From: Candidatus Oxydemutatoraceae bacterium
GTDB taxonomy: Bacteria > Pseudomonadota > Gammaproteobacteria > Poriferisulfidales > Oxydemutatoraceae
Direction: 5' to 3'
Length of the DNA stretch: 64,000 nucleotides
Assembly (NCBI GenBank): GCA_965223735.1
Contig: OZ245010.1
Location: 1,712,397-1,776,396 of the forward strand
Below, piece by piece: positions 8,329 through 48,975 of the stretch. The position numbers were made by a program, and so were the translations under genes. Every line of letters begins with the position of its first letter. Positions within the stretch are counted from its first letter, which is position 1. The notes beneath the pieces were generated by a model that made no database searches, had not been told where the DNA came from, and worked only from the letters and a program-made list of their open reading frames with translations.

Positions 8329-9066
8329 TCAGTCGGTTTCTGCGACCATCAATTCGCGCGCTTTTTCTGCAAGTTGTTTGCGGTCGCCGTCGCCGGGCAG
8401 GCTGTCGGTGTAGCGCACGACGGCGTGTATGCACGGCTCGCCGAGCACCGCGAGGGCATGGGTGAAGAACGGCACGTCGCTGGTGTAGGGCGCTTTCTCG
8501 TGAACGCCGTCGTGTGCGCTGTTGCACGGGTAAGTGATGACCATCGGCTGCACCCACGCATGGGTGTCGATCGCGGCCATGAACAGGCGGGGGTGAAAGC
8601 GCTGTATTTCGGTGCCGTCCGAAGTCGTGCCTTCGGGAAAGAACGCGACGCTGGCGCCGACGCGCAGGCGTTCGCTGATCAACTGCGCCGCGGTTTCCGC
8701 GCCGGCGCCGCGGTCTATGAACAAGGTGCCGGCTTTGCGCGCGAGATAACCGATGATCGGCCAGCGCGCGACCTCGGCTTTCGACAGAAAACTCACCGGT
8801 TGCAGGCTGCCGACGATCACGATGTCCATCCACGAGATATGGTTGGCGACGACCAGCGACGCGCCTTCGGCGGGTTTGCCGTGAATATGCAGGCGGATGC
8901 CGACCAGTCGCGTGCAGGTGCGCAGCCACCAGCACACGATGCCGCGTTGCCGGGCGTTGCCCGCTTTATGTCCGTCGGGCGTCAGCGCGAAGATGCACAG
9001 CAGTATGCCGATGACGACGTGGATGCCGATCAGCGGGAGACGGATTGCAATGCGCAGGACGCTCAT
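8329..9066 (-). CDS. 1-acyl-sn-glycerol-3-phosphate acyltransferase family (PlsC/LPLAT)
   Basis: NHISWMDI (HX4D acyltransferase motif) and FPEGTTS motif. N-terminal TM segment. Confidence 0.75.
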   Translation of the reverse strand: MSVLRIAIRLPLIGIHVVIGILLCIFALTPDGHKAGNARQRGIVCWWLRTCTRLVGIRLHIHGKPAEGASLVVANHISWMDIVIVGSLQPVSFLSKAEVARWPIIGYLARKAGTLFIDRGAGAETAAQLISERLRVGASVAFFPEGTTSDGTEIQRFHPRLFMAAIDTHAWVQPMVITYPCNSAHDGVHEKAPYTSDVPFFTHALAVLGEPCIHAVVRYTDSLPGDGDRKQLAEKARELMVAETD

Positions 9067-9541
9067 GCGGGATCGGCCGTGTCGGGTCGCAACCCGTCCG
9101 GCGCCGGGTGAATGTCAACCAGTCGCGTGCAGGTGCGCAGCCACCAGCGCACGATGCCGCGCTGCCGCGTGCTGCCCGTTCTATGTCTGTCGGGTGTCAG
9201 CGCGAAGATGCACAGCAGTATGCCGACGACGACGTGGATGCCGATCAGCGGGAGACGGACGGCGATGCGCAGGGCGCTCATGCGGGATCGGTCGGGGTGG
9301 ATCGGAACCCGTCCGGCGCTGGGTGGAGATCGATCAGCCGCGTGCAGGTGCGCAGCCACCAGTGCACGATGCCGCGCTGCCGCGTGCTGCCCGTTCTATG
9401 TCTGTCGGGCGTCAGCGCGAAGATGCACAGCAGTATGCCGATGACGACGTGGATGCCGATCAGCGGGAGACGGATTGCAATGCGCAGGACGCTCATGCGG
9501 GATCGGCCGTGTCGGGTCGCAACCCGTCCGGCGCCGGGTGG
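8896..9541. repeat. Three tandem ~215-bp copies of the acyltransferase 5' end (about 45 codons) plus its upstream region
   Basis: Copies end at about 9110, 9326 and 9541 with a few substitutions. This produces the pseudo-ORFs 9063..9359(-) and 9278..9496(-), which repeat [18 protein letters not shown]. Confidence 0.8.
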
Positions 9542-21200: not shown

Positions 21201-21388
21201 CTTCGTGCCAAGCGGCACTTTCGCCGATGGATATTCTTCGGGGTAGGGTTTTTATCCTCCACCGCACGTTGAAAAATTCGGCATCCCAAGTCAATTAGGC
21301 CGGTTGGTTTGTCATGCTTATCCGCCTCAAGCAATGCCCATCCTATGGAATTGCTGCCGAGATCAAGCCCTAACACCTTCTTGCTCAT
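18280..21388 (-). CDS. cas9: Cas9 (type II-C), with the reading frame interrupted near 18566-18572
   Basis: RuvC-I MSKKVLGLDLGSNSIGWAL at the N-terminus, HNH motif NTEIDHILPLSRSLDDSYMNKV and RuvC-III HRHHAIDAVV. The 942-aa frame stops at 18563. The last ~100 aa (GKDYEFVMALHINDLVSI..., alignable to the NmeCas9 PAM-interacting domain) continue in another frame as the 18280..18675 ORF. No csn2 or cas4, hence II-C. Confidence 0.85.
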
Positions 21389-21416
21389 AGATGCATTCTC
21401 GTATATACTGGCCAGT

Positions 21417-21527
21417 AGTATAACTGACCAAGGCCTATCGATTAGCTTTTCATACCAATGAAATATCTTTTTCGTAGGCAACGCTTTTAAGCGACCAAGA
21501 GCCCTCCCAGCGGGGGCTCTTTTAATA
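21417..21527 (+). ncRNA. Candidate tracrRNA: a 23-nt anti-repeat plus downstream hairpins and terminator. Strand assignment is uncertain.
   Basis: 21417-21439 (AGTATAACTGACCAAGGCCTATC) is the exact reverse complement of repeat positions 14-36. It lies 28 nt upstream of the cas9 ATG. On the plus strand it is followed by hairpins (TTTCAT-ACCA-ATGAAA, CGCTT-TT-AAGCG) and an intrinsic terminator at 21497-21527. Confidence 0.45.
21497..21527 (+). terminator. Rho-independent terminator (8-bp stem followed by TTTT)
   Basis: aagagccc-tcccagcg-gggctctt followed by tt. Confidence 0.5.
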
Positions 21528-22467: not shown

Positions 22468-23595
22468 TCAGTATAAGTGCGGTTTGTGTCTGTCCTTCGG
22501 CGGAAAAATCACTTTCAACTTATTCAGCGGCGTATTGCGGGGCAGATGTTTTTGGTGTTGCAAACATCCCACAACGACGCCCGGGTGGATATTCAATTCT
22601 TTTGCGAATTTGCGGATCGCATGCGCGGACTTTGAGGCTTGTTTGAGTTGTTCCGAGTACTGCTTCGGGATCAGCGTGTTGATCGCAAATTGGCTGGCTT
22701 CTTTTTCGAGTCTGTTTTCATCCGGCATTATTTTGTCGTCCCAGAATGCCATCCGTCGGCTTTGGTGCAGCAGAATGTGGCCGGCTTCGTGAAAGAAAGT
22801 CAGCCAGAACTGATCGTTGGTCTTGCCATATAGCGGCAGTTGGATCAGTGGCCGGTTGGGTCTCAGCCAGCGCGCGATGCTGCTGACGTGCGCTTTCCTG
22901 AAAGCAGGCGTAATCGCCAGATGCACACCTGCGTCGAAGCACAGTTTCTCTATCCCGTGCTCAATCTCCTGTGGTTTTTCGACGGTCAGGTTCCGGATCC
23001 TTGCAATCGCCTTACGGAATTTTACTTTGCCATATTTCGCCGGGGTGCCTTGTTCCTCGGCTTCTATCTCACCCGTGCGCAGCAAAGCTGAAACCGCCCC
23101 CATGTCCTGCCGGCGTTTTTTCGTCAGCGAGAGCATCCTTTCTGTCTCTTCAAAACAGCTTTTCCATTGTTTCGGGGAAGCCACGCCGTAGAATTTCAGC
23201 GCTTCCCGGACAATGCGCGGTTTGTTCCCGGCCGTCTGCCTGGATTTTTCAATGTACCCGTTGTTCATTAACTCCCTGATCGGTATTTGTCTGAGCCACC
23301 TCACCCATTTACGGTATTTTTTGTCTTGCTTCAGGCGTAGCAGTTCAGCGCGGTAATGTGCTTCGCGGGTAAGCCAGAATTTCGCGGAGGGGCCTCCCAA
23401 CACTTGCTCAAGCACCGCAGCCGTTCCTTCAGTGATAGGCGCTTTGCCGTTGAAGAGAAGGCTTACGTGCTTTTCAGACCATCCGGTTCTTTTTGAAAAA
23501 TCAGTCTGTTTCCATCCCCGAGACCTGATAATGTCCTTGATGGTATCTCCCGCAGGAGATACCCGGTCGGGCTCAAATGTATTTAAATCAGACAT
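22468..23595 (-). CDS. HigA-like XRE-family HTH regulator fused to an ImmA/IrrE (M78, COG2856) zinc-metallopeptidase domain
   Basis: N-terminal HTH (GWKQTDFSKRTGWSEKHVSLLFNGKAPIT) and C-terminal HEAGH zinc-binding motif (FFHEAGHILLH). Overlaps the stop of the upstream toxin-like ORF by 8 nt. Confidence 0.7.
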   Translation of the reverse strand: MSDLNTFEPDRVSPAGDTIKDIIRSRGWKQTDFSKRTGWSEKHVSLLFNGKAPITEGTAAVLEQVLGGPSAKFWLTREAHYRAELLRLKQDKKYRKWVRWLRQIPIRELMNNGYIEKSRQTAGNKPRIVREALKFYGVASPKQWKSCFEETERMLSLTKKRRQDMGAVSALLRTGEIEAEEQGTPAKYGKVKFRKAIARIRNLTVEKPQEIEHGIEKLCFDAGVHLAITPAFRKAHVSSIARWLRPNRPLIQLPLYGKTNDQFWLTFFHEAGHILLHQSRRMAFWDDKIMPDENRLEKEASQFAINTLIPKQYSEQLKQASKSAHAIRKFAKELNIHPGVVVGCLQHQKHLPRNTPLNKLKVIFPPKDRHKPHLY

Positions 23596-24035: not shown

Positions 24036-24151
24036 CGCCCACACCCCACGCTGAACCGCCGTTTCCATTCCGGGTCGCGGCGGCGAGGCGGTTCAAATCA
24101 CGGGTGCAGGCCGTCCGGTTGCGTCCCCGGCTCGCGTTCATGCTTCAGGTC
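24036..24151 (-). pseudogene. Degenerate duplicate of the apaH 3' end (about 40 codons, with W->stop and an internal ~110-bp deletion)
   Basis: Minus-strand translation DLKHEREPGTQPDGLHP*FEPPRRRDP..RRFSVGCG matches ApaH DLGHKREPGTQPDGLHPWFEPPHRRDP...RRFSVRCGE encoded at 28140-28380. Nucleotide identity is clear over two blocks. Confidence 0.55.
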
Positions 24152-24244
24152 TATAATGAATGTTGATCGGATCAAATCGCCCAACGATCCGTTAAATAGA
24201 CTCGTTGCTATCTTGACAGGAAGTGATATTGATATGGAAAAACC

Positions 24245-26326
24245 ATGAGACAGAATGCTTTGAATCACTTGCGGATCGCACTTGGTGATCCTCAAGCGGA
24301 GTTCAGGGATGGGCAATGGGAAAGTATTTCGCAGCTTTTAGATCGTAGAAGGGTGCTTGTCGTCCAGCGTACCGGTTGGGGGAAAAGCATGGTTTATTTT
24401 TTGGCGACAAAGCTTATTCGAGAGTCGGGTTCAGGGCCAACCTTATTAATTTCTCCGCTATTATCATTAATGCGCAATCAGATTGAGGCTGCCGCGCGAA
24501 TTGGCATTACACCCAGGAAGATAGACAGTACCAATACCGGCGAATGGGATCAGATCAGGCAGGAGTTGACCGCTGATCAGGTAGATATATTGCTGATTTC
24601 TCCCGAACGCCTTGCAAATGCTTCCTTTCGCCGGCAAGTTTTCCCTGTTATTGCAGAAAACATCGGGCTTTTTGTGATTGACGAGGTTCACTGTATCTCA
24701 GACTGGGGGCATGATTTCAGACCGGATTACAAGCGTATCGTTCGTGTCCTTCAAGCTATTCCTTCCAATGTTCCGGTGCTGGCAACAACGGCAACAGCCA
24801 ATGACAGGGTTGTGGATGATGTCAAGTCGCAACTCGGGGATGACATTGAATTGGCCAGAGGTTCTTTAGTCAGAGAAAGCCTCAAACTTCAGAATATAAA
24901 TATGCCCAGTCCCGCAGCAAGAATGGCTTGGCTGGCACAGACTATTCCAAATCTTCCGGGCAGTGGAATAATCTATACTCTGACTCAGCGCGATGCAGAA
25001 CGACTCACTGAATGGCTTCAGCGCAACAGAATTCGTGCGGAAGCCTATCATGCCGACATCTCAAACCGCGAAGTGTTGGAACAGCGGTTGCTTGATAATG
25101 AAGTAAAAGTTCTGGTTGCCACCGTTGCTTTGGGGATGGGATTTGACAAGCCTGACTTGGGGTTTGTAATTCATTTTCAAAGGCCTGCTTCCGTCGTTCA
25201 TTACTATCAACAGGTTGGTCGTGCCGGTCGTGCTGTTAAAGAGGCGTATGGCATTCTGCTTTGTGGCGAGGAGGACGATCACATTGCAGATTACTTCATA
25301 CGCAGTGCCTTTCCACCTCAGCAGCATATTACCGCCATCCTTGAAACGCTTGATAAGGCGGATGATGGCCTGCCACCATCATCAATGCAAAATTTTTTAA
25401 ATATCAGCGGGTCACAAATTAAAAAAACGATCAAATATCTGACCATAGAATCCCCTTCTCCGATTGTAAAAGACGGTTCTAAATGGTATGCGACAGCTTC
25501 GGCGGCTGACTATGCAATTGATCAGGGGTATATAGAGGCAATTACCCGGATCCGGAGACAGGAACAGCGTCAGATGCAGGAATATATGGAACACAGAGGA
25601 TGCCTGATGGCATTCCTCCAAAATGCGCTCGATGACCCCAACTCACAGGGCTGCGGTAAATGCCGGAATTGTAACCCCGGACTTCTGCTTTCTGAACAGT
25701 ACAGCGATGAATTGGCAAACCAGGCGGCACTCTTTCTTAAAAGAGGCTGTCAACCAATCAAGCCTCGCAAGCAATGGCCCGCAGAGAATATGTTCAAACA
25801 TTATCCACTTGGAGGAAGGTGGATTCCACCAAAATTTCGAGCCTCTAAAGGTCGTGCCCTGAGTCTGTGGCGTGATGCCGGTTGGGGGCAACTCGTTGCC
25901 AAAGGGAAATATGAAACTGGAAGTTTTGCAGATGAGCTTGTAACCGCGTGTGTCGAGATGATTGCAGCATGGGATCCCAGACCGCCCCCCGAATGGTTGA
26001 CCTGCATACCTTCACTTGATCATCCTGAGTTAGTTCCGGATTTTGCACGGCGTTTAGCGGGTGGCCTGAAGCTGCCGTTTATTCCCTGTGTTCGGAAAGC
26101 AAGGCAGAATGATCAACAGAAAACCAGGGAAAACAGCTTTCAGAAAGCACGAAATTTGGATGGTGTTTTTGAAATCAACCTTGAACGGAATGATCCGTGC
26201 CTGTTGATCGACGACGTGGTTGACTCGGGGTGGACTTTTACCGTTGTATCCGCTTTGTTGCGTCAGGCGGGTTGCACGGCGGTTCGTCCTCTGGCATTGG
26301 CGCTTAATTCTCCAAGGATGAATTGA
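24245..26326 (+). CDS. RecQ-family SF2 DNA helicase with a RecQ-type Zn-binding motif, C-terminally fused to a ComF/GntX-type phosphoribosyltransferase (PRTase) domain
   Basis: Motif I RTGWGKS, motif II DEVHCISDWGHDFRPDY (RecQ DEAH box), III ATTATA, VI QQVGRAGR. Cys cluster CLMAF..GCGKCRNCNP like the RecQ zinc finger. C-terminal type-I PRTase signature NDPCLLIDDVVDSGWTF. GC about 47%. Confidence 0.8.
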   Translation: MRQNALNHLRIALGDPQAEFRDGQWESISQLLDRRRVLVVQRTGWGKSMVYFLATKLIRESGSGPTLLISPLLSLMRNQIEAAARIGITPRKIDSTNTGEWDQIRQELTADQVDILLISPERLANASFRRQVFPVIAENIGLFVIDEVHCISDWGHDFRPDYKRIVRVLQAIPSNVPVLATTATANDRVVDDVKSQLGDDIELARGSLVRESLKLQNINMPSPAARMAWLAQTIPNLPGSGIIYTLTQRDAERLTEWLQRNRIRAEAYHADISNREVLEQRLLDNEVKVLVATVALGMGFDKPDLGFVIHFQRPASVVHYYQQVGRAGRAVKEAYGILLCGEEDDHIADYFIRSAFPPQQHITAILETLDKADDGLPPSSMQNFLNISGSQIKKTIKYLTIESPSPIVKDGSKWYATASAADYAIDQGYIEAITRIRRQEQRQMQEYMEHRGCLMAFLQNALDDPNSQGCGKCRNCNPGLLLSEQYSDELANQAALFLKRGCQPIKPRKQWPAENMFKHYPLGGRWIPPKFRASKGRALSLWRDAGWGQLVAKGKYETGSFADELVTACVEMIAAWDPRPPPEWLTCIPSLDHPELVPDFARRLAGGLKLPFIPCVRKARQNDQQKTRENSFQKARNLDGVFEINLERNDPCLLIDDVVDSGWTFTVVSALLRQAGCTAVRPLALALNSPRMN

Positions 26327-26329
26327 TAA

Positions 26330-28135
26330 ATGAACAATCTTTTAACAGACGATACGAAATCGATAATGCTGCTCTGTGGCGTGCTTGGAAAAGCGCGCTC
26401 CATAAAACCACTCACGCAATCAGAATACAACAGGGTAGCCCGCTGGCTGATCGGTGAGAAAATGCGGCCGGCGGATCTGCTCCGATATGAAAATGTAGAT
26501 TTGGCGGCAATAAATTCCGGGATCGAGCTGCAACGATTGAAATCCCTGCTCGGAAGAGGCGTTCAGCTTGGGTTTGCTGTAGAGGAATGGCAACAGAACG
26601 GCATTTGGGTTTTGAGCCGAAGCGACCGGGATTATCCGGCACGGTATAAAAAGCATCTGAAGAATGAAGCACCTCCGCTTCTTTTCGGAGTAGGCGACAG
26701 GTCTCTTTTGCAGGGTGGTGGAGTTGCAATTGTCGGTTCGCGGAATGTGGACGGTGACGGAGAGGATTTTGCCCGTAAAGTGGCTGAGCTATGCGCTTAC
26801 AACAGAATGCCGGTTGTTTCAGGGGGGGCTCGCGGGGTTGACCAGATTGCCATGACCGCCGCACTTGATGCGGGAGGTGTGGTAATAGGCGTTCTTGCTG
26901 AAAATCTTCTGAGGAGAAGTCTTGAACGCAATGCACGCAGGGCAATCTCTGATGACCAGTTGCTTTTAATATCTCCTTACCGCCCGGATGCCCGCTTTAC
27001 AGTCGGGACGGCAATGGGGCGAAATAAGTTGATCTATGCCATGGCTGATTACGGCCTGGTCGTGAGTGCTGAGTATAAAAAAGGCGGCACCTGGGCCGGG
27101 GCGGTGGAAGAGCTGAAACGGGAAAATCCTCTACCGGTTTTTGTGAGATCGGGCGCAAATGTTCCTGTCGGCAACACAGAGTTGCTGTGTTCAGGTGCTC
27201 TGGAGTATCAGGAAGTGAAATATCGGGAAGAGCTGGGTCAACACCTCGCTGATCTTGCCAAGATTGTAAAAGGTCAAGAACAAGCACAGATCGACAGATC
27301 AGGGAAAGATGAAAAACAGGGAGTTCTTCCTATTGGTCCAACGATGGACAGTTCCGCGGTGGCGCCGGGACCCGGCATTTACGAGACTGTATTACCGGTG
27401 ATCATTGATCATCTGGGATCCCCAACCGCCTCCGGTGAATTATCGAAAACCCTGGACGTGTCGAAAGCACAGCTGTATCGCTGGCTCAGAAAGGCTGTGG
27501 ATGAAGGACGGATCCAAAAACTACTAAGTCCTGTGAGATATCAGGTAATAGAGGCGGAACCGGAAACCATTTACGAAGCCGTATTGCCGGTGATCATTGC
27601 TCATCTGGGATCATCAACTGCGGTCGATGAATTATCGAAAGCTCTGGACGTGTCGAAAGCACAACTGAATCACTGGCTCAAAAAAGCCGTGGATGAAGAA
27701 AGGATCCGAAAGCTATCGCAGCCCGTAAGGTATCAGGCAATGGAAGCGGCGCAGACAACCATTTGCGAAGCCGTCTCGCCGGTGATCATCAGTCATCAAA
27801 CTATTTACGAAGCTGTATTGCCGATGATCATTGCTCATCTGGGATCCCCAACTGCACCCGGTGAATTATCGAAAACGCTGGACGTGTCGAAGGTACAGTT
27901 GAACAGCTGGCTCAAAAAGGCCGTGGATGAAGGACGGATCCAAAAGTTATCGCAGCCCGTAAGGTATCAGGCAATGGCAGCGGAGCCGACAACCATTTAC
28001 GAAGCCGTATTGCCGGTGATCATTGCTCATCTGGGATCATCAACTGCGGTCGATGAATTATCGAAAACTCTGGACGTGTTGAAGGTACAGTTGAACAGTT
28101 GGCTCAAAAAAGCCGTGAATGAAGGAAGGATCTGA
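26330..28135 (+). CDS. DprA/Smf (SLOG-fold) domain protein with four C-terminal ~63-aa tandem winged-helix-like repeats
   Basis: DprA Rossmann core VAIVGSRNVDG..VVSGGARGVDQIAMTAALDAGGVVIGVLAENL. The C-terminus carries 4 repeats of IYEAVLPVIIAHLGS.TA..ELSKTLDVSK.QLN.WLKKAVDEGRIQKLSQPVRYQA. Starts 4 nt after the helicase-PRTase stop. Confidence 0.75.
   Translation: MNNLLTDDTKSIMLLCGVLGKARSIKPLTQSEYNRVARWLIGEKMRPADLLRYENVDLAAINSGIELQRLKSLLGRGVQLGFAVEEWQQNGIWVLSRSDRDYPARYKKHLKNEAPPLLFGVGDRSLLQGGGVAIVGSRNVDGDGEDFARKVAELCAYNRMPVVSGGARGVDQIAMTAALDAGGVVIGVLAENLLRRSLERNARRAISDDQLLLISPYRPDARFTVGTAMGRNKLIYAMADYGLVVSAEYKKGGTWAGAVEELKRENPLPVFVRSGANVPVGNTELLCSGALEYQEVKYREELGQHLADLAKIVKGQEQAQIDRSGKDEKQGVLPIGPTMDSSAVAPGPGIYETVLPVIIDHLGSPTASGELSKTLDVSKAQLYRWLRKAVDEGRIQKLLSPVRYQVIEAEPETIYEAVLPVIIAHLGSSTAVDELSKALDVSKAQLNHWLKKAVDEERIRKLSQPVRYQAMEAAQTTICEAVSPVIISHQTIYEAVLPMIIAHLGSPTAPGELSKTLDVSKVQLNSWLKKAVDEGRIQKLSQPVRYQAMAAEPTTIYEAVLPVIIAHLGSSTAVDELSKTLDVLKVQLNSWLKKAVNEGRI
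27371..28135 (+). repeat. In-frame tandem DNA repeat, about 4.2 copies of about 189 bp, encoding the C-terminal repeats of the DprA-like gene
   Basis: Units begin ATTTACGAAGCCGTATTGCCGGTGATCATTGCTCATCTGGGATC at 27571, 27803 and 27991, with a diverged first unit at 27371 and a partial 42-bp unit at 27761. Confidence 0.85.
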
Positions 28136-28139
28136 TCCT

Positions 28140-28955
28140 TTACTCCCCACACCTCACGCTGAACCGCCGTTCCTGTCCCGGGTCGAGGCGGAACGCGGTC
28201 AGGCTGCCGCCCCACACGCAACCGGTGTCGAGGCCGAGAACCCCATCGCGGCGGATGAAACCGAGCGCCGACCAGTGGCCGAAGATCACCGTGTAGGCCG
28301 GGTCGCGGCGGTGGGGCGGTTCAAACCACGGGTGCAGGCCGTCCGGTTGCGTCCCCGGTTCGCGTTTATGTCCCAGGTCGATGCGTCCGTCGGCGCTGCA
28401 GAAGCGTAGCCGGGTCATCACATTGATGATCACGCGCGCACGGTCGTCGCCGTTTAAATTGTCGTCCCAGTATTCGGGTGTGTTGCCGTAGATGTTCTTG
28501 AGGAACGTCCGGTAGTCGTCCGCACGCAGTCGCGTTTCAACTTCTCCGGCAAGTGCCTGCGCGGTGTTGATGTCCCATCCGGGTATCAGGCCCGCGTGCA
28601 CCATCGCGAGGCGGCGTTCATGGTCCACGATGAACAGCGGGTGTCGTCTCAGCCACTCGATCAGTTCGCGGCGGTCGGGGCTTTGCAGCACCGCGTCGAG
28701 TGTGCCGTCGGCCGGCGGGTGTTCGCAGCCGGCGTCGGTTCTCAGCAGATGGAAGTCGTGATTGCCGAGCACGCACCGCACGCACGCGCCGAGGCTTTTC
28801 AGGAAGCGCAGGCTTTCGAGCGAATCGCTGCCGCGGCTGACGAGATCACCGGTCAGCCAGAGTTCGTCGTGCGCCGGGTCAAACTCGATCTCGTCGAGCA
28901 GTTGTTTCAGCGGGTTGAGGCAGCCTTGCAGATCGCCGATCGCGTAGAGTGACAT
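28140..28955 (-). CDS. apaH: Bis(5'-nucleosyl)-tetraphosphatase, symmetrical
   Basis: MSLYAIGDLQGC..LTGDLVSRG..GNHD metallophosphatase motifs. apaG-apaH synteny. Confidence 0.85.
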   Translation of the reverse strand: MSLYAIGDLQGCLNPLKQLLDEIEFDPAHDELWLTGDLVSRGSDSLESLRFLKSLGACVRCVLGNHDFHLLRTDAGCEHPPADGTLDAVLQSPDRRELIEWLRRHPLFIVDHERRLAMVHAGLIPGWDINTAQALAGEVETRLRADDYRTFLKNIYGNTPEYWDDNLNGDDRARVIINVMTRLRFCSADGRIDLGHKREPGTQPDGLHPWFEPPHRRDPAYTVIFGHWSALGFIRRDGVLGLDTGCVWGGSLTAFRLDPGQERRFSVRCGE

Positions 28956-29367: not shown

Positions 29368-30187
29368 AGTGGTTGCCTCGCTTTCCTGATGCTGTTTGCT
29401 TGCCGTCAATCAAGTTTAACATGCCGAGGAAATCATCTACCCCCAGCGTTTCGGGGCGGGCGGCGGCGGACAGATTGAGCCGTGCGAAATCGGTGTCGTC
29501 GAGGGTGCCCGAGAAGATCCGCCCGATGGTTTTGCGCCGTTGCGAGAACGCACGTCCGACAAGGTTGAGGAACGCCCGCCGGCGTTGCGGGTCGAACGGG
29601 CACGGGCGCGGCAGCAGCCTGACCAGTGAGGAACTGACTTGTGGTGGCGGCGAGAACGCGCTGGGGGCGACGTCAAACAGATGGCGGACTTCCACGAAAC
29701 ACGCCGCGGTCACGCTCAGCCGCGAGTAATTGCGCGTGCCGGGTTGCGCGGCGAGGCGTTCAGCAACTTCGGTCTGTAACATCAGGTGCATGTCGCGGAT
29801 GTGTTCGCAGGTGTTGAACAAATGCATCAGCAACGGCGTCGAAACGTTATAGGGCAGGTTGCCGATGACTCTGATCTTGCGGTCCGTGTGCAGCGCTGCG
29901 AAGTCAAAGTCGAGCGCGTCGCGGCAGTGCAGCGTGAAGGCTTTGTTTTCGGCAAAGCGTTGCGTCAGCCGGTCGGCGAGCGCGTGGTCGATTTCAACGG
30001 TGTCGAGGTGGGCGCAGCGTTCAAGCACCGGCGCGGTCAACGCGCCGAGGCCGGGGCCGATTTCGACGATCGCCTCGTCCGGGGCCGGCGAGATCGCCTC
30101 AACCACGCGCGCGACGGTCTGTGTGTCGGTGAGGAAATGCTGGCCGAAGTGTTTTTTAGCCGGGGTGTTCATCGCCTTGAGGCTCAT
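29351..30187 (-). CDS. rsmA: 16S rRNA (adenine1518-N6/adenine1519-N6)-dimethyltransferase
   Basis: FGQHFL...[17 protein letters not shown], KsgA family. pdxA-ksgA-apaG-apaH order. Start is uncertain (30187 or 30172). Confidence 0.85.
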   Translation of the reverse strand: MSLKAMNTPAKKHFGQHFLTDTQTVARVVEAISPAPDEAIVEIGPGLGALTAPVLERCAHLDTVEIDHALADRLTQRFAENKAFTLHCRDALDFDFAALHTDRKIRVIGNLPYNVSTPLLMHLFNTCEHIRDMHLMLQTEVAERLAAQPGTRNYSRLSVTAACFVEVRHLFDVAPSAFSPPPQVSSSLVRLLPRPCPFDPQRRRAFLNLVGRAFSQRRKTIGRIFSGTLDDTDFARLNLSAAARPETLGVDDFLGMLNLIDGKQTASGKRGNHYEKPL

Positions 30188-30770
30188 CGTTCGGGGGCCT
30201 GTTTTATCCGGCTTGCTCACTGGCGGTTCTCAGTGCTCATCGTTCGGGGATTCGTTGTTTCAACGGTGTCGAGGCGGCACCGCGTTCGAGCACCGGCGCG
30301 GTCAACGCGCCGAGGCCGGGGCCGATTTCGACGATCGCCTCGTCCGGGGCCGGCGAGATCGCCTCAACCACGCGCGCGACGGTCTGTGTGTCGGTGAGGA
30401 AATGCTGGCCGAGGTGCTTTTTAGCCGGGGTGTTCATCGCCTTGAGGCTCATCGTCCGGGGGCCTGTTTTATCCGGCTTGTTCACTGGCGGTTCTCAGTG
30501 CTCATCGTTCGGGGATTCGTTGTTTCAATGGTGTCGAGGCGGCACCGCGTTCGAGCACCGGTGCGGTCAATGCGCCGAGGCCGGGGCCGATTTCGACGAT
30601 CGCCTCGTTCGGGGCCGACGAGATCGCCTCAACCACGCGCGCGACGGTCTGTGTGTCGGTGAGGAAATGCTGGCCGAGGTGCTTTTTAGCCGGGGTGTTC
30701 ATCGCCTTGAGGCTCATCGTTCGCGTGTTTGTTTTGCCTGCCTGCTCACCGGCGCCCCTCAATGTTGATC
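29995..30770. repeat. Three tandem ~265-bp copies of the ksgA 5' end (about 60 codons) plus its upstream leader
   Basis: Copies start at about 29995, 30260 and 30525. The pseudo-ORFs 30237..30485(-) and 30502..30762(-) repeat [23 protein letters not shown]...[17 protein letters not shown]. Confidence 0.8.
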
Positions 30771-30872: not shown

Positions 30873-31859
30873 TCACGTTGCGTGGCGGTACAGGTTGTCG
30901 GCGAGGCGGCCGGCCTGCACGACGGCGGCGCGGAGGCTGGCGGCGGATGCGCGTCCGGTGCCCGCGAGATCAAAAGCGGTGCCGTGATCCACTGAGGTGC
31001 GTACAAAAGGCAGGCCGAGCGTGATGTTCACGGTGTTGCCGAAGCCGGCGTGCTTGATCACCGGCAGTCCCTGGTCGTGGTACATCGCGACGACGGCGTC
31101 GCAGTCGGTCAATTGTCGCGGCGTGAACGCGGTGTCGGCGGGCAACGGCCCGTTCAGGTTCATCGTCGCGGACAGTTGGTCGAGCACCGGGCGAATGATC
31201 TGCGTCTCTTCGTGCCCGAGATGACCGTCTTCGCCGGCGTGAGGGTTGAGTCCGCACACCGCGATGCGCGGTTCATCGATGCCGAACATTCGCCGCATAG
31301 CCTGATCGACGACGCGCAATGTCCGTTCGAGGCGCGCGCACGTCAGCGCCTGCGCGACGGCGCTCAACGGCAGGTGTGTTGTCGCCAGTGCGACGCGCAG
31401 CGTTTCGCAGACGAGCATCATCACCGTGTCGCAGCCGCAGGCATCGGCGAGATATTCGGTGTGGCCGGAGAAAGCAATGCCCGCCTGATTGATCACGGCC
31501 TTGTTGACCGGTGCGGTGACCAGCGCATCGTAAGCACCGTCGCGACAGCCTGCGATACCTGCGTCAATCTGTGCCAGCACGTAGCGCGCGTTATGCGGGT
31601 CGGCGCGGCCGGCGGCGGCGGGCGCGTCCGCCGTGACCTGCGCCAGTTGCAGGGGATTGGGCGTTGCGGACGACTCCATAGGCAACTCCTCTGGGCTGAT
31701 TTTGCTTCCCAGCAGTTCAGCGCGTTCGGCCAGCACCTGGCGGTCGCCTATCAGGACCAATTGATCGACGAGATGTTCTTTAGTCTGGTCGGCGCCGAGC
31801 GCCAGCGCAATATCGGGGCCGATACCGGCGGGGTCGCCCGTTGTGACGGCAACTTTCAT
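30873..31859 (-). CDS. pdxA: 4-hydroxythreonine-4-phosphate dehydrogenase
   Basis: 328 aa, PdxA family (TGDPAGIGP.., GHTE, CGLNPHAGE). surA-pdxA-ksgA synteny. Confidence 0.85.
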   Translation of the reverse strand: MKVAVTTGDPAGIGPDIALALGADQTKEHLVDQLVLIGDRQVLAERAELLGSKISPEELPMESSATPNPLQLAQVTADAPAAAGRADPHNARYVLAQIDAGIAGCRDGAYDALVTAPVNKAVINQAGIAFSGHTEYLADACGCDTVMMLVCETLRVALATTHLPLSAVAQALTCARLERTLRVVDQAMRRMFGIDEPRIAVCGLNPHAGEDGHLGHEETQIIRPVLDQLSATMNLNGPLPADTAFTPRQLTDCDAVVAMYHDQGLPVIKHAGFGNTVNITLGLPFVRTSVDHGTAFDLAGTGRASAASLRAAVVQAGRLADNLYRHAT

Positions 31860-31865
31860 CGGCGT

Positions 31866-32345
31866 TGCAGCAACGGTGTTCCAGCAACCAGGCGGGTGTT
31901 CAAAAGACAGGCGAGGTCATGCGGTTTCCGGGATGACCACGCGGCGCGGGAATGACCCGCAGCGGAACTTGCGGAGGGACCAGTGAGCAGCGGTGTTCCA
32001 GCAGCCAGGCGGGTGTTCAAAAGACAGGCGGGGTCATGCGCTTTCCGGGATGGCCACGCGGCGCGGGAATGACCCGCAGCGGAACTTGCGGAGGGGTCAG
32101 TGAGCAACGGTGTTCCAGCAACCAGGCGGGTGTTCAAAAGACAGGCGGGATCGTGCGCTTTCCGGGATGGCCACGCAGCGCGGGAATGACCCGCAGCGGA
32201 ACTTGCGGAGGGGCCAGTGAGCAGCGGTGTTCCAGCAGCCAGGCGGGTGTTCAAAAGACAGGCGGGATCGTGCGCTTTCCGGGATGGCCACGCGGCGCGG
32301 GAATGACCCGCAGCGGAACTTGCGGAGGGGTCAGTGGGTGGCGGC
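31866..32345. repeat. Intergenic tandem repeat, 4 x ~120 bp, between pdxA and surA
   Basis: The unit gcaacggtgttccagcaaccaggcgggtgttcaaaagacaggcgXggtcatgcgXtttccgggatgXccacgcggcgcgggaatgacccgcagcggaacttgcggagggXXcagtgagca occurs four times. Each unit contains a hairpin CCGCA-GCGGAACT-TGCGG. Confidence 0.8.
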
Positions 32346-48331: not shown

Positions 48332-48865
48332 ATGAACGTGAGTCTTGACCCGTTCCGTCCCATCGGTGAACTGCTTGAAAGCGGCGGGCCGGTGCTCGGG
48401 ATACTTCTCGTGATGACGTTCGTCATGTGGCTTCTGATCATTGAACGCTACTGGTACTTGTCGTTCCAGCAGCGGTTTTTCGCTGACGAGTTCGCCTCGC
48501 GCTGGCGGGCGCGCAGCGACCGGCGTTCACGCGCCGCCCGCATGATCCGTTCGTGCTGGCTTTCGCAGTTTCGCTGCCATCTTGAACAACGCATTGCCCT
48601 GATCAGGATGCTGGTCGGTATCAGCCTGCTGCTCGGCCTGCTCGGTACGGTAACCGGCATGGTCGGCGTATTTGAAGGACTGTCGGTATTCGGTGTCGGG
48701 GGTTCCGGCGGTATCCGGGCGGTCGCCGACGGCATTGCCGGCGCGGTCTTCCCCGCGATGGCCGGGATGGTTGCTGCGCTGTCGGGTGTGTATTTCTCTG
48801 CGCAGCTCAAAAAGCGCGTCGCGCACGCGGTGCGGGTATTGCGCGTGTGTCTGGCGCTGGAGTGA
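48332..48865 (+). CDS. exbB: ExbB/TolQ family protein
   Basis: 177 aa, three TM helices, LLGLLGTVTGMVGVF motif. Confidence 0.75.
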   Translation: MNVSLDPFRPIGELLESGGPVLGILLVMTFVMWLLIIERYWYLSFQQRFFADEFASRWRARSDRRSRAARMIRSCWLSQFRCHLEQRIALIRMLVGISLLLGLLGTVTGMVGVFEGLSVFGVGGSGGIRAVADGIAGAVFPAMAGMVAALSGVYFSAQLKKRVAHAVRVLRVCLALE

Positions 48866-48975
48866 GGGGCGATGATCAGAAGACATGGCGACCATGCTGA
48901 AAGCGCGTCGCGCACGCGGTGCGGGTATTGCGCGTGCGCCTGGCGCTGGGGTAAGGGGCGATGATCAGAAGACGC
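48811..48975. repeat. Tandem duplication, 2 x ~85 bp, spanning the exbB 3' end and exbD start
   Basis: aaagcgcgtcgcgcacgcggtgcgggtattgcgcgtg[t/c]g[t/c]ctggcgctgg[a/g]gt[g/a]aggggcgatgatcagaagac occurs twice (48811-48894 and 48893-48975). Confidence 0.7.

What the first reader, a model, noticed from the sequence alone, without database searches (positions are those of the whole stretch)
27371..28135. Near-identical 189-bp in-frame tandem repeats (about 4.2 copies) forming the C-terminus of the DprA-like protein
Repeat units differ by only a few substitutions. One 42-bp partial unit (27761-27802) sits between copies. This suggests ongoing slipped-strand or recombinational expansion and contraction. 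It could tune DNA or partner binding through variable WH-domain copy number, or it could be an assembly collapse or expansion artefact.
Basis: seen in the sequence. Interest (0 to 1): 0.5.

Follow-up and report, generated by a model that had tools for sequence, protein, structure and literature searches.

The report
Antitoxin PsyrA with quadrupled winged-helix tail
The repeat is real: it encodes four tandem, diverged copies of a small winged-helix domain at the end of the PsyrA/RqlI antitoxin of a known toxin-antitoxin phage-defence pair, so it is an unusual variant of a known system and neither an assembly error nor an actively slipping repeat.

Summary
The repeat exists, is in frame and forms the C-terminus of ORF 26330-28135. 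The unit is 192 bp (64 aa), not 189 bp. The copies are 78-92% identical in DNA, not near-identical. The layout is three full units, a 14-aa remnant and a last unit of 47 aa.

The protein is PsyrA/RqlI, the DprA/SLOG-like antitoxin. It follows PsyrT/RqlH (RecQ-like helicase plus PRTase). The pair lies in a low-GC defence island next to CRISPR-Cas9, inserted beside apaH.

Each full unit is predicted to fold as a compact winged helix. The closest folds are Z-alpha, ArsR and MarR. The last unit lacks the wing.

Synonymous divergence between units (dS 0.17-0.57) and dN/dS of 0.24-0.42 point to old duplications kept under purifying selection. They do not fit ongoing slippage or an assembly artefact.

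All 117 close homologues, 34 genome loci and 80 metagenome loci carry one copy. More distant PsyrA branches have gained 2-3 copies on several separate occasions, always downstream of a PsyrT-like helicase where checked.

The HTH tail is dispensable for toxin neutralisation in E. coli RqlI. The array is therefore most likely an accessory multivalent binding module of unknown ligand. I rate it a new variant of a known kind, of modest interest.

The parts
24245..26326 (+). psyrT/rqlH: toxin, a RecQ-like helicase with a C-terminal phosphoribosyltransferase domain (693 aa)
   Evidence: PADLOC PsyrT E 3.7e-285 over 6-685 of 689 model positions. Pfam DEAD and Helicase_C pass their cut-offs; RecQ_Zn_bind and Pribosyltran are weak.
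26330..28135 (+). psyrA/rqlI: DprA/SLOG-like antitoxin, 601 aa, starting 3 nt after the psyrT stop
   Evidence: PADLOC PsyrA E 1.8e-147; model positions 1-396 of 398 are matched by aa 1-406. The N-terminus MNNLLTDDTK aligns with the homologues' starts.
26588..27088 (+). DprA-type Rossmann/SLOG domain of PsyrA (aa 87-253)
   Evidence: Pfam DNA_processg_A E 5e-36 and LDcluster4. PDB sequence matches to DprA (4ljr, 3uqz, 3maj) and ShosA (8zva, 9vzo) cover this domain only.
27374..27565 (+). Unit 1 (aa 349-412): complete winged helix, at the position of the single C-terminal domain of canonical PsyrA
   Evidence: Boundaries. HMM score 91.4. Predicted H-H-H-wing at residues 15-71 of the 266-aa model. 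The PADLOC PsyrA model ends here.
27566..27757 (+). Unit 2 (aa 413-476): complete winged helix
   Evidence: score 104.7; residues 76-135.
27758..27799 (+). 14-aa in-frame remnant (TICEAVSPVIISHQ), equal to helix 1 of a unit; probably acts as a linker
   Evidence: 67-81% identical to the first 42 bp of the other units. Low-confidence helix, pLDDT below 50 at residues 143-151 of the model.
27800..27991 (+). Unit 4 (aa 491-554): complete winged helix
   Evidence: score 103.0. AF2 with a 40-sequence alignment gives pLDDT 84.9. Fold searches.
27992..28132 (+). Unit 5 (aa 555-601): truncated copy with helices 1-3 only and no wing; the stop codon follows at 28133-28135
   Evidence: HMM positions 1-47. 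The model shows H1 plus a long helix and no strands. Sequence after the stop is unrelated to the rest of a unit, and the apaH-homologous repeat starts 10 bp later.
24038..24154 (.). Degenerate copy of the apaH 3' end, forming a direct repeat with 28146-28382; it flanks the psyrTA cassette on the left
   Evidence: Repeat families D3 and D4, 87-89% identity; alignment A3.
28140..28955 (-). Intact apaH, convergent with psyrA; right border of the low-GC island
   Evidence: ORF. Homologues are named bis(5'-nucleosyl)-tetraphosphatase. GC rises from about 0.49 to about 0.63 at about 28.1 kb.

Best explanation
Shown. The 192-bp array is genuine coding sequence. It gives the PsyrA/RqlI antitoxin of a PsyrTA (RqlHI) toxin-antitoxin and anti-phage module a tail of three complete winged-helix (wHTH) domains. 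A 14-aa helix-1 remnant and a fourth, wingless copy complete the tail. Canonical family members have a single wHTH.

Inferred.
- The array arose by successive tandem duplications of the ancestral C-terminal wHTH, followed by gene conversion between units.
- The last unit was probably cut by the rearrangement that joined the cassette to apaH.
- The copies then diverged under purifying selection, so they are made and folded.

Proposed mechanism, inferred and not tested.
- The N-terminal and SLOG part of PsyrA holds PsyrT in check, as shown for E. coli RqlI residues 1-320.
- The wHTH tail is an accessory ligand-binding module, binding nucleic acid or a conserved partner.
- Flexible beads-on-a-string multiplication raises valency and reach. 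If PsyrA dimerises like DprA and ShosA, a complex would carry 6-8 wHTH domains.
- This would strengthen tethering or sensing without changing neutralisation.
For: System identity: PADLOC PsyrA E 1.8e-147 and PsyrT E 3.7e-285; the genes are co-oriented and 3 nt apart.

Repeat anatomy.

Fold.
- One unit: AF2 pLDDT 84.9 with wHTH topology.
- Foldseek TM 0.72 to Z-alpha domains.
- The 266-aa tail model has three full wHTH domains, a weak remnant helix, a wingless last unit and pTM 0.38, i.e. no fixed arrangement between domains.

Selection and age: dS 0.17-0.57 and dN/dS 0.24-0.42 between units. The synonymous excess in U1 versus U2 gives binomial p = 0.003. Both the 192-bp units and the 42-bp remnant keep the frame.

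Recurrence.
- 15 distant PsyrA representatives have 2-3 tandem copies. Ten of ten tested match PADLOC PsyrA at E <= 1e-129.
- In several, the copies are more alike within the protein than to any outside copy. Examples: P0126 95-100%, P0204 92-98%, P0224 55-66% against 34-40% outside.
- In the P0136-like branch, 45 of 118 clusters have 2-3 copies. Both loci checked lie just after a 689-aa PsyrT-like helicase, one of them in independent NCBI and ENA assemblies. No DNA-level repeat remains there, which indicates long-term retention.

Literature: the RqlI HTH (C-terminal 80 aa) is dispensable for neutralising RqlH, and RqlI interacts with RqlH (PMC4670107). ShosA, the DprA-like antitoxin of ShosTA, binds ssDNA and forms a dimer (PMC11961720; PMC12961424).
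Against: - No ligand is known for the PsyrA wHTH.
- The units are not basic (pI 5.8-8.0), so DNA binding is not evident from charge.
- No matching set of operator-like repeats was found upstream of psyrT.
- All 117 close homologues, 34 genome loci and 80 metagenome loci have one copy, so extra copies are not required in this clade.
- The tail is dispensable in E. coli RqlI and may even be slightly inhibitory there.
- This window is unusually rich in tandem duplications, so a mutational origin without adaptive value is possible.
- dN/dS below 1 could reflect only selection against misfolding of an essential antitoxin.
- The assembled copy number could not be checked against reads.
Confidence: 0.55

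Rival explanations
1. Neutral by-product. The host genome, or the donor's, is prone to tandem duplication. The C-terminal wHTH of PsyrA is dispensable, so extra copies are simply tolerated and drift. Selection acts only against misfolding or aggregation of an essential antitoxin.
For: The 64-kb window holds many other tandem duplications:
- 215 bp x3, 265 bp x2.7, 117 bp x4 and 89 bp x1.8;
- 115 bp x2;
- a 1.4-kb thyA-folA segment duplicated 2094 bp apart.

The HTH tail is dispensable in RqlI. Close homologues have tandem repeats in the linker instead (P0028, P0113), which shows that this part of the gene tolerates repeats. The last unit is truncated, apparently without harm.
Against: - dN/dS is 0.24-0.42 across all pairs of units.
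- There is no stop or frameshift in 759 bp, although C-terminal truncation should be harmless.
- The remnant is in frame.
- Multi-copy tails recur and persist in a distant branch until the DNA repeat has vanished.
- The array is older (78-92% identity) than most other arrays in the window (89-99%). It has the low GC of the imported cassette, so it may predate arrival in this genome.
Confidence: 0.27
2. Autoregulation. As in many type II antitoxins, the wHTH binds an operator in the psyrTA promoter. Extra copies would adapt the repressor to a repeated or extended operator.
For: The domain is an HTH-type fold, like MarR, ArsR and GntR repressors. Antitoxin autoregulation is common (established knowledge of type II TA systems).
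Against: - The putative recognition helix and wing are conserved across phyla (P8, W37, P53 and Y56 invariant; Q33, K49 and R55 nearly so). This fits a generic ligand better than locus-specific operators.
- No repeated operator-like motif that would fit four domains was seen upstream of psyrT.
- In E. coli, RqlI acts by protein-protein interaction and its HTH is dispensable.
Confidence: 0.1
3. Contingency locus. The array is actively expanding and contracting by slipped-strand mispairing or unequal recombination, giving the population PsyrA variants with different copy numbers.
For: The units lie head to tail, share exact stretches of up to about 30 bp and show mosaic patterns that imply past recombination between units. 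Some other PsyrA proteins have near-identical triplicated domains, so recent duplications do occur in the family (P0126, P0204).
Against: - Units differ at 12-43 positions, with dS up to 0.57. This divergence strongly reduces slippage and recombination.
- No close relatives or alternative alleles were found: the nearest homologue is about 70% identical, and a junction-pattern scan of metagenome contigs found nothing.
Confidence: 0.05
4. Assembly artefact: repeat expansion, or haplotypes from co-existing strains placed in tandem.
For: The source appears to be an uncultured gammaproteobacterial genome on a 1.85-Mb contig. The window contains several other tandem duplications, some 96-99% identical. 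Reads were not available.
Against: - The copies are diverged, in frame and mosaic, with dN/dS below 1.
- Four units plus a remnant cannot come from stacking two haplotypes.
- The same architecture (2-3 copies) is found in unrelated assemblies, and in one case in independent assemblies of the same protein.
Confidence: 0.03

Closest known systems
PsyrTA / RqlHI toxin-antitoxin and anti-phage defence system (Sberro 2013; Russell & Mulvey 2015, PMC4670107; Millman 2022, bioRxiv 10.1101/2022.05.11.491447)
   Same: - Same two-gene operon: RecQ-like helicase with a PRTase domain, followed by a DprA/SLOG-like antitoxin ending in an HTH.
- Both proteins match the PADLOC models end to end.
- It lies in a defence island next to CRISPR-Cas9.
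   Different: Canonical PsyrA/RqlI is about 400-450 aa with one C-terminal wHTH. This one is 601 aa, with three full wHTH domains, one wingless copy and a helix remnant. It is the only four-copy case among all sequences examined.
Multi-wHTH PsyrA proteins in other branches of the family (e.g. P0136, P0151, P0391 with 3 copies; P0395 with 2 copies, a Caldilineaceae MAG). They are in the databases as 'DNA-processing protein DprA'. I found no paper that describes them.
   Same: Tandem multiplication of the same C-terminal domain, downstream of a PsyrT-like helicase.
   Different: - They are independent events. The window's units are closest to the single domains of its own single-copy relatives (71-83% identical), against 37% for the only listed distant multi-copy protein whose best outside match is a window unit (P0236).
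- Their copies are so diverged that no DNA repeat remains.
- They have at most 3 copies.
DprA (recombination mediator in natural transformation) and ShosA (antitoxin of ShosTA)
   Same: Shared Rossmann/SLOG DNA_processg_A domain (PDB matches 4ljr, 3uqz, 3maj, 8zva, 9vzo). From my own knowledge, some DprA proteins also end in a Z-alpha-like winged helix.
   Different: - The best family match is PsyrA, not DprA or ShosA.
- The partner gene is a PRTase helicase.
- No Pfam DprA C-terminal winged-helix family was among the 11 families listed for a single unit at E <= 0.1.
- ShosA lacks a wHTH tail.
Tandem winged-helix arrays: Z-alpha/Z-beta pairs of ADAR1, ZBP1 and PKZ, and the four winged helices of SelB
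   Different: - No detectable sequence homology.
- The units are not basic.

Membership tests
PsyrTA / RqlHI system | Toxin: a RecQ-like superfamily-2 helicase fused to a C-terminal PRTase domain | tested here: met
   PADLOC PsyrT E 3.7e-285, model positions 6-685 of 689. Pfam DEAD and Helicase_C pass their cut-offs. RecQ_Zn_bind (24.3 bits against cut-off 25) and Pribosyltran (21.7 against 26.3) fall just below.
PsyrTA / RqlHI system | Antitoxin: a DprA/SLOG-like protein with a C-terminal HTH | tested here: met
   PADLOC PsyrA E 1.8e-147, model positions 1-396 of 398. Pfam DNA_processg_A E 5e-36. About 70% identical to 424-445-aa homologues.
PsyrTA / RqlHI system | The two genes are adjacent and co-oriented, toxin first | tested here: met
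   psyrT 24245-26326 and psyrA 26330-28135 on the same strand. The same order is seen in L119-L121. A PsyrT-like ORF is present in 87 of 118 related loci.
PsyrTA / RqlHI system | The toxin is toxic, the antitoxin neutralises it, and the pair protects against phage | not testable with these tools
   Needs expression and plaque assays. Known only for the E. coli, P. syringae and other tested homologues.
Winged helix-turn-helix fold | H1-b1-H2-H3-b2-b3 topology with a beta-hairpin wing | tested here: met
Z-alpha (Z-DNA/Z-RNA binding) domains | Conserved Asn173 and Tyr177 on helix 3 and Trp195 on the wing (ADAR1 numbering) | tested here: not met
   In the local alignment, Asn is kept (N35) but the Tyr177 position is Lys39. 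By my own manual extension of that alignment, which ends before the wing, the wing Trp195 corresponds to Tyr56. The Z-alpha sequence was recalled from memory. Fold similarity alone does not establish membership.
Canonical DprA (transformation mediator) | DprA-type domain set and context: SAM-like N-terminal domain, Rossmann fold, with or without the DprA C-terminal winged helix; not paired with a PRTase helicase | tested here: not met
   The Rossmann domain is present. However, the protein matches PsyrA far better than anything else, the single unit gave no hit to a DprA winged-helix Pfam family at E <= 0.1, and the gene is operonic with PsyrT.
Contingency (phase- or copy-number-variable) repeat locus | Near-identical units, and copy-number polymorphism among close strains | tested here: not met
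   Units are 78-92% identical, with dS 0.17-0.57. Polymorphism could not be tested because no relative closer than about 70% identity exists in the collections.

The most novel reading that the evidence does not exclude
Multiplication of the wHTH tail is a recurrently selected way for PsyrTA systems to sense infection. On this reading the Z-alpha-like domains bind an unusual nucleic-acid form or a phage protein, and valency (up to 6-8 domains per antitoxin dimer here) sets the threshold at which PsyrA releases the PsyrT toxin. That would be a bacterial counterpart of the tandem Z-alpha sensors ZBP1, ADAR1 and PKZ.
Probability: 0.1. Interest if true: 0.7.

Novelty: new variant of a known kind. 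Interest (0 to 1): 0.3.

Why it matters
How PsyrTA/RqlHI senses phage is unknown, and so is the role of the antitoxin's HTH tail beyond its being dispensable for neutralisation. The tail has been duplicated independently several times and kept for long periods in some branches. This window shows the highest copy number seen. Together these observations suggest that the tail's valency matters. They also provide natural 1-, 2-, 3- and 4-copy variants for testing what it binds. Beyond that, this is an ordinary member of a known defence family in a defence island.

Tried and rejected
- Copy number in related strains. No relative closer than about 70% identity was found in 5.8 billion proteins. The exact protein is a singleton cluster and has no contig on record.
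- Scan of GTDB species genomes. It gave 38 loci; a C-terminal domain was detected in 34 of them, always as a single copy. The source genome was not among them.
- Degenerate unit-junction DNA pattern in JGI metagenome contigs: 0 hits.
Repeating with closer sequences gave 80 loci, all single-copy.
- Operator-like repeats, promoters and terminators around psyrTA: nothing above background.
- Sequence search of the PDB: only the DprA and ShosA Rossmann domains matched, and nothing matched the tail.
- Plasmid and phage collections: only distant relatives, and none clearly with more than one copy.
- Z-alpha membership: rejected on the key tyrosine.
- Organism identification through ApaH: only unnamed MAG relatives at 84% identity or less; the nearest named hits are Gammaproteobacteria at about 55-62%.

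Full report
**Observation**

Tandem Repeats Finder reports overlapping arrays with periods of 192, 42 and 234 bp between 27376 and 28023. The repeat finder gives three 300-nt copies spaced 192 and 234 bp apart. I translated ORF 26330-28135 (601 aa) and split it at the recurring TIYEAV motif. This gives the following layout.

| Element | aa | Window coordinates | Length |
|---|---|---|---|
| U1 | 349-412 | 27374-27565 | 64 aa |
| U2 | 413-476 | 27566-27757 | 64 aa |
| Remnant (TICEAVSPVIISHQ) | 477-490 | 27758-27799 | 14 aa |
| U4 | 491-554 | 27800-27991 | 64 aa |
| U5 | 555-601 | 27992-28132 | 47 aa |
| Stop codon | - | 28133-28135 | - |

The unit is therefore 192 bp (64 aa), not 189 bp. Every piece is in frame. 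Pairwise DNA identity is 77.6-91.5%, i.e. 12-43 differences. 'Near-identical' is wrong, but the repeat itself is far beyond chance.

**What the gene is**

- The ORF has a Pfam DNA_processg_A domain at aa 87-253 (E 5e-36).
- It matches the PADLOC PsyrA model end to end: E 1.8e-147, model positions 1-396 of 398 on aa 1-406. The ancestral single C-terminal domain therefore corresponds to U1.
- The gene 3 nt upstream (24245-26326, 693 aa) matches PsyrT at E 3.7e-285. It carries DEAD and Helicase_C domains plus weak RecQ_Zn_bind and PRTase signals.
- This is the PsyrTA (RqlHI) toxin-antitoxin pair, which has been shown to defend against phage.
[quoted passage not shown] RqlI binds RqlH, and RqlI residues 1-320 neutralise it. 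The C-terminal 80 residues with the HTH are dispensable and perhaps mildly inhibitory (PMC4670107).
- No PsyrA structure has been solved. Only the Rossmann domains of DprA and ShosA match by sequence.

**Genomic context**

The pair lies at the right end of a low-GC stretch (0.36-0.59) that meets host DNA of 0.60-0.66 GC at about 28.1 kb. The order of features is:

- lgt and thyA-folA;
- a second copy of the thyA-folA segment, 2094 bp downstream;
- a CRISPR array at 16447-17010;
- cas1, a small ORF (131 aa, no Pfam hit; cas2 by position), and a 972-aa Cas9;
- a gene for an HTH plus M78 peptidase;
- a degenerate copy of the apaH 3' end at 24038-24154;
- psyrT and psyrA;
- intact apaH, with the ksgA- and pdxA-like ORFs beyond it.

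The psyrA stop codon lies 10 bp before the right-hand apaH repeat begins. The sequence after the stop bears no resemblance to the missing third of a unit. I infer that the rearrangement joining the cassette to apaH clipped the last unit.

**Fold of a unit**

- AlphaFold2 on U4 with 40 homologues gives pLDDT 84.9 and a helix-strand-helix-helix-hairpin topology, i.e. a winged helix.
- Foldseek places Z-alpha domains first (TM 0.72), followed by GntR, MarR and ArsR domains.
- A model of the 266-aa tail shows three complete winged helices, a low-confidence helix for the remnant, and a last unit without strands. Its pTM is 0.38, so the domains behave as beads on a string.
- The tyrosine that defines Z-alpha aligns with a lysine, and the units are near-neutral in charge. 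I do not call it a Z-alpha domain.

**Age and selection**

- Nei-Gojobori estimates between units give dS 0.17-0.57 and dN/dS 0.24-0.42.
- The synonymous excess in U1 versus U2 is significant (p = 0.003).
- Shared variants are mosaic. U4 resembles U1 in the first half and U5 in the second, while U5 starts like U2. This points to past gene conversion.
- These results do not fit current slippage or an assembly collapse or expansion. They indicate that all copies have been translated and constrained.

**Comparison with relatives**

- The nearest homologues are only about 70% identical and 424-450 aa long.
- With a domain HMM, none of the close homologues (116-117 counted, depending on the profile), 34 genome loci and 80 metagenome loci has more than one copy.
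- Two close homologues have tandem repeats in the linker instead (P0028, P0113).
- A phmmer search of 1.84 billion representatives with U2 found 15 full-length PsyrA proteins with two or three tandem copies. All ten that I tested match PADLOC PsyrA at E <= 1e-129.
- In several, the copies are more alike within the protein than to any outside copy: P0126 95-100%, P0204 92-98%, P0224 55-66% against 34-40%. These are therefore separate duplication events.
- In the P0136-like branch, 45 of 118 clusters carry two or three copies.
- Both loci checked in that branch lie directly after a 689-aa PsyrT-like helicase, and one protein recurs in independent NCBI and ENA assemblies. No DNA-level repeat is left there, so the architecture has been kept for a long time.
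- The window's units are closest to the single domains of its own clade (71-83% identical). This array is therefore an independent event and has the highest copy number I saw.

**Interpretation**

Shown:
- a real, in-frame, diverged array;
- a tail of three and a half predicted winged helices on the PsyrA antitoxin;
- independent recurrence of the same kind of multiplication elsewhere in the family.

Inferred:
- the tail is an accessory binding module whose valency is under selection;
- toxin neutralisation resides in the N-terminal and SLOG part.

The ligand is unknown. The near-invariance of surface positions on helix 3 and the wing across phyla favours a generic nucleic-acid feature or the conserved PsyrT partner over a locus-specific operator. 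No operator-like repeats were found.

The main rival is neutral tolerance of duplication. The window is strikingly rich in tandem duplications, and the tail is dispensable in E. coli.

**Verdict**

This is a known system with a new architectural variant. It is wrong on period and identity, right on the fold, and wrong on ongoing slippage. Interest is modest. The useful lead is that PsyrA has repeatedly multiplied its winged helix, which gives a handle on what that domain does.

Noticed in passing
window 12898-14319 and 14992-16413: A segment of about 1.4 kb carrying thyA and folA is present twice, 2094 bp apart. Identity is 93.5% overall and 99% over the first 300 nt. It may be a real tandem gene duplication or a haplotype stacked by the assembler.
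   Followed up: partly
window 16447-17010 and 17388-21481 (- strand): A CRISPR-like array (unit of about 66 bp, roughly 36-nt repeat plus spacer) lies next to cas1 (299 aa), a small ORF (131 aa, no Pfam hit; possibly cas2) and a 972-aa Cas9 with HNH and RuvC_III domains. This looks like a type II system in the same low-GC island as psyrTA.
   Followed up: partly
window 22468-23595 (- strand): A 375-aa ORF with an N-terminal HTH_3 domain and an IrrE-like M78 peptidase domain lies between the cas genes and psyrTA. This domain pair is common in mobile-element and defence regulators.
   Followed up: no
window 24038-24154 versus 28146-28382; 28126-28140: The psyrTA cassette is flanked by direct repeats of the apaH 3' end. 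The left copy is 87-89% identical and lacks about 120 bp. The psyrA stop codon sits inside a perfect 15-nt palindrome, AAGGATC-T-GATCCTT, right at the junction (read). This may be a trace of the recombination event.
   Followed up: partly
window 29992-30720: A 265-bp unit repeated 2.7 times at 96% identity duplicates the 5' end of the ksgA/rsmA-like gene and its upstream region. It leaves two extra N-terminal gene fragments as separate ORFs (30237-30485, 30502-30762). The period is not a multiple of three.
   Followed up: no
window 31869-32336: A 117-bp unit repeated 4.0 times at 95% identity lies immediately upstream of the pdxA-like gene (30873-31859, - strand).
   Followed up: no
window 8892-9540, 12711-12905, 48811-48973: Further long-period tandem duplications: 215 bp x3 (89-93%), 115 bp x2 (91%) and 89 bp x1.8 (94%). 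Taken together, this 64-kb window has an unusually high density of tandem duplications of 0.1-2 kb for a bacterial genome.
   Followed up: no
homologues P0028 (574 aa) and P0113 (501 aa): Two close PsyrA homologues carry tandem peptide repeats in the linker between the SLOG domain and the winged helix: about 9 copies of EKLNQQLVDLAANRMEKNM, and about 4 copies of SQEVDPIEEQAVGDPEIKPQP. The C-terminal third of the gene is therefore repeat-prone in more than one way.
   Followed up: no
protein P0123 (5412 aa) from the representative search: A 5412-aa protein gave 23 matched stretches to the 64-aa unit and 9 domains with the broader profile. This would be a giant protein with an array of related small HTH domains. 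It was not examined.
   Followed up: no
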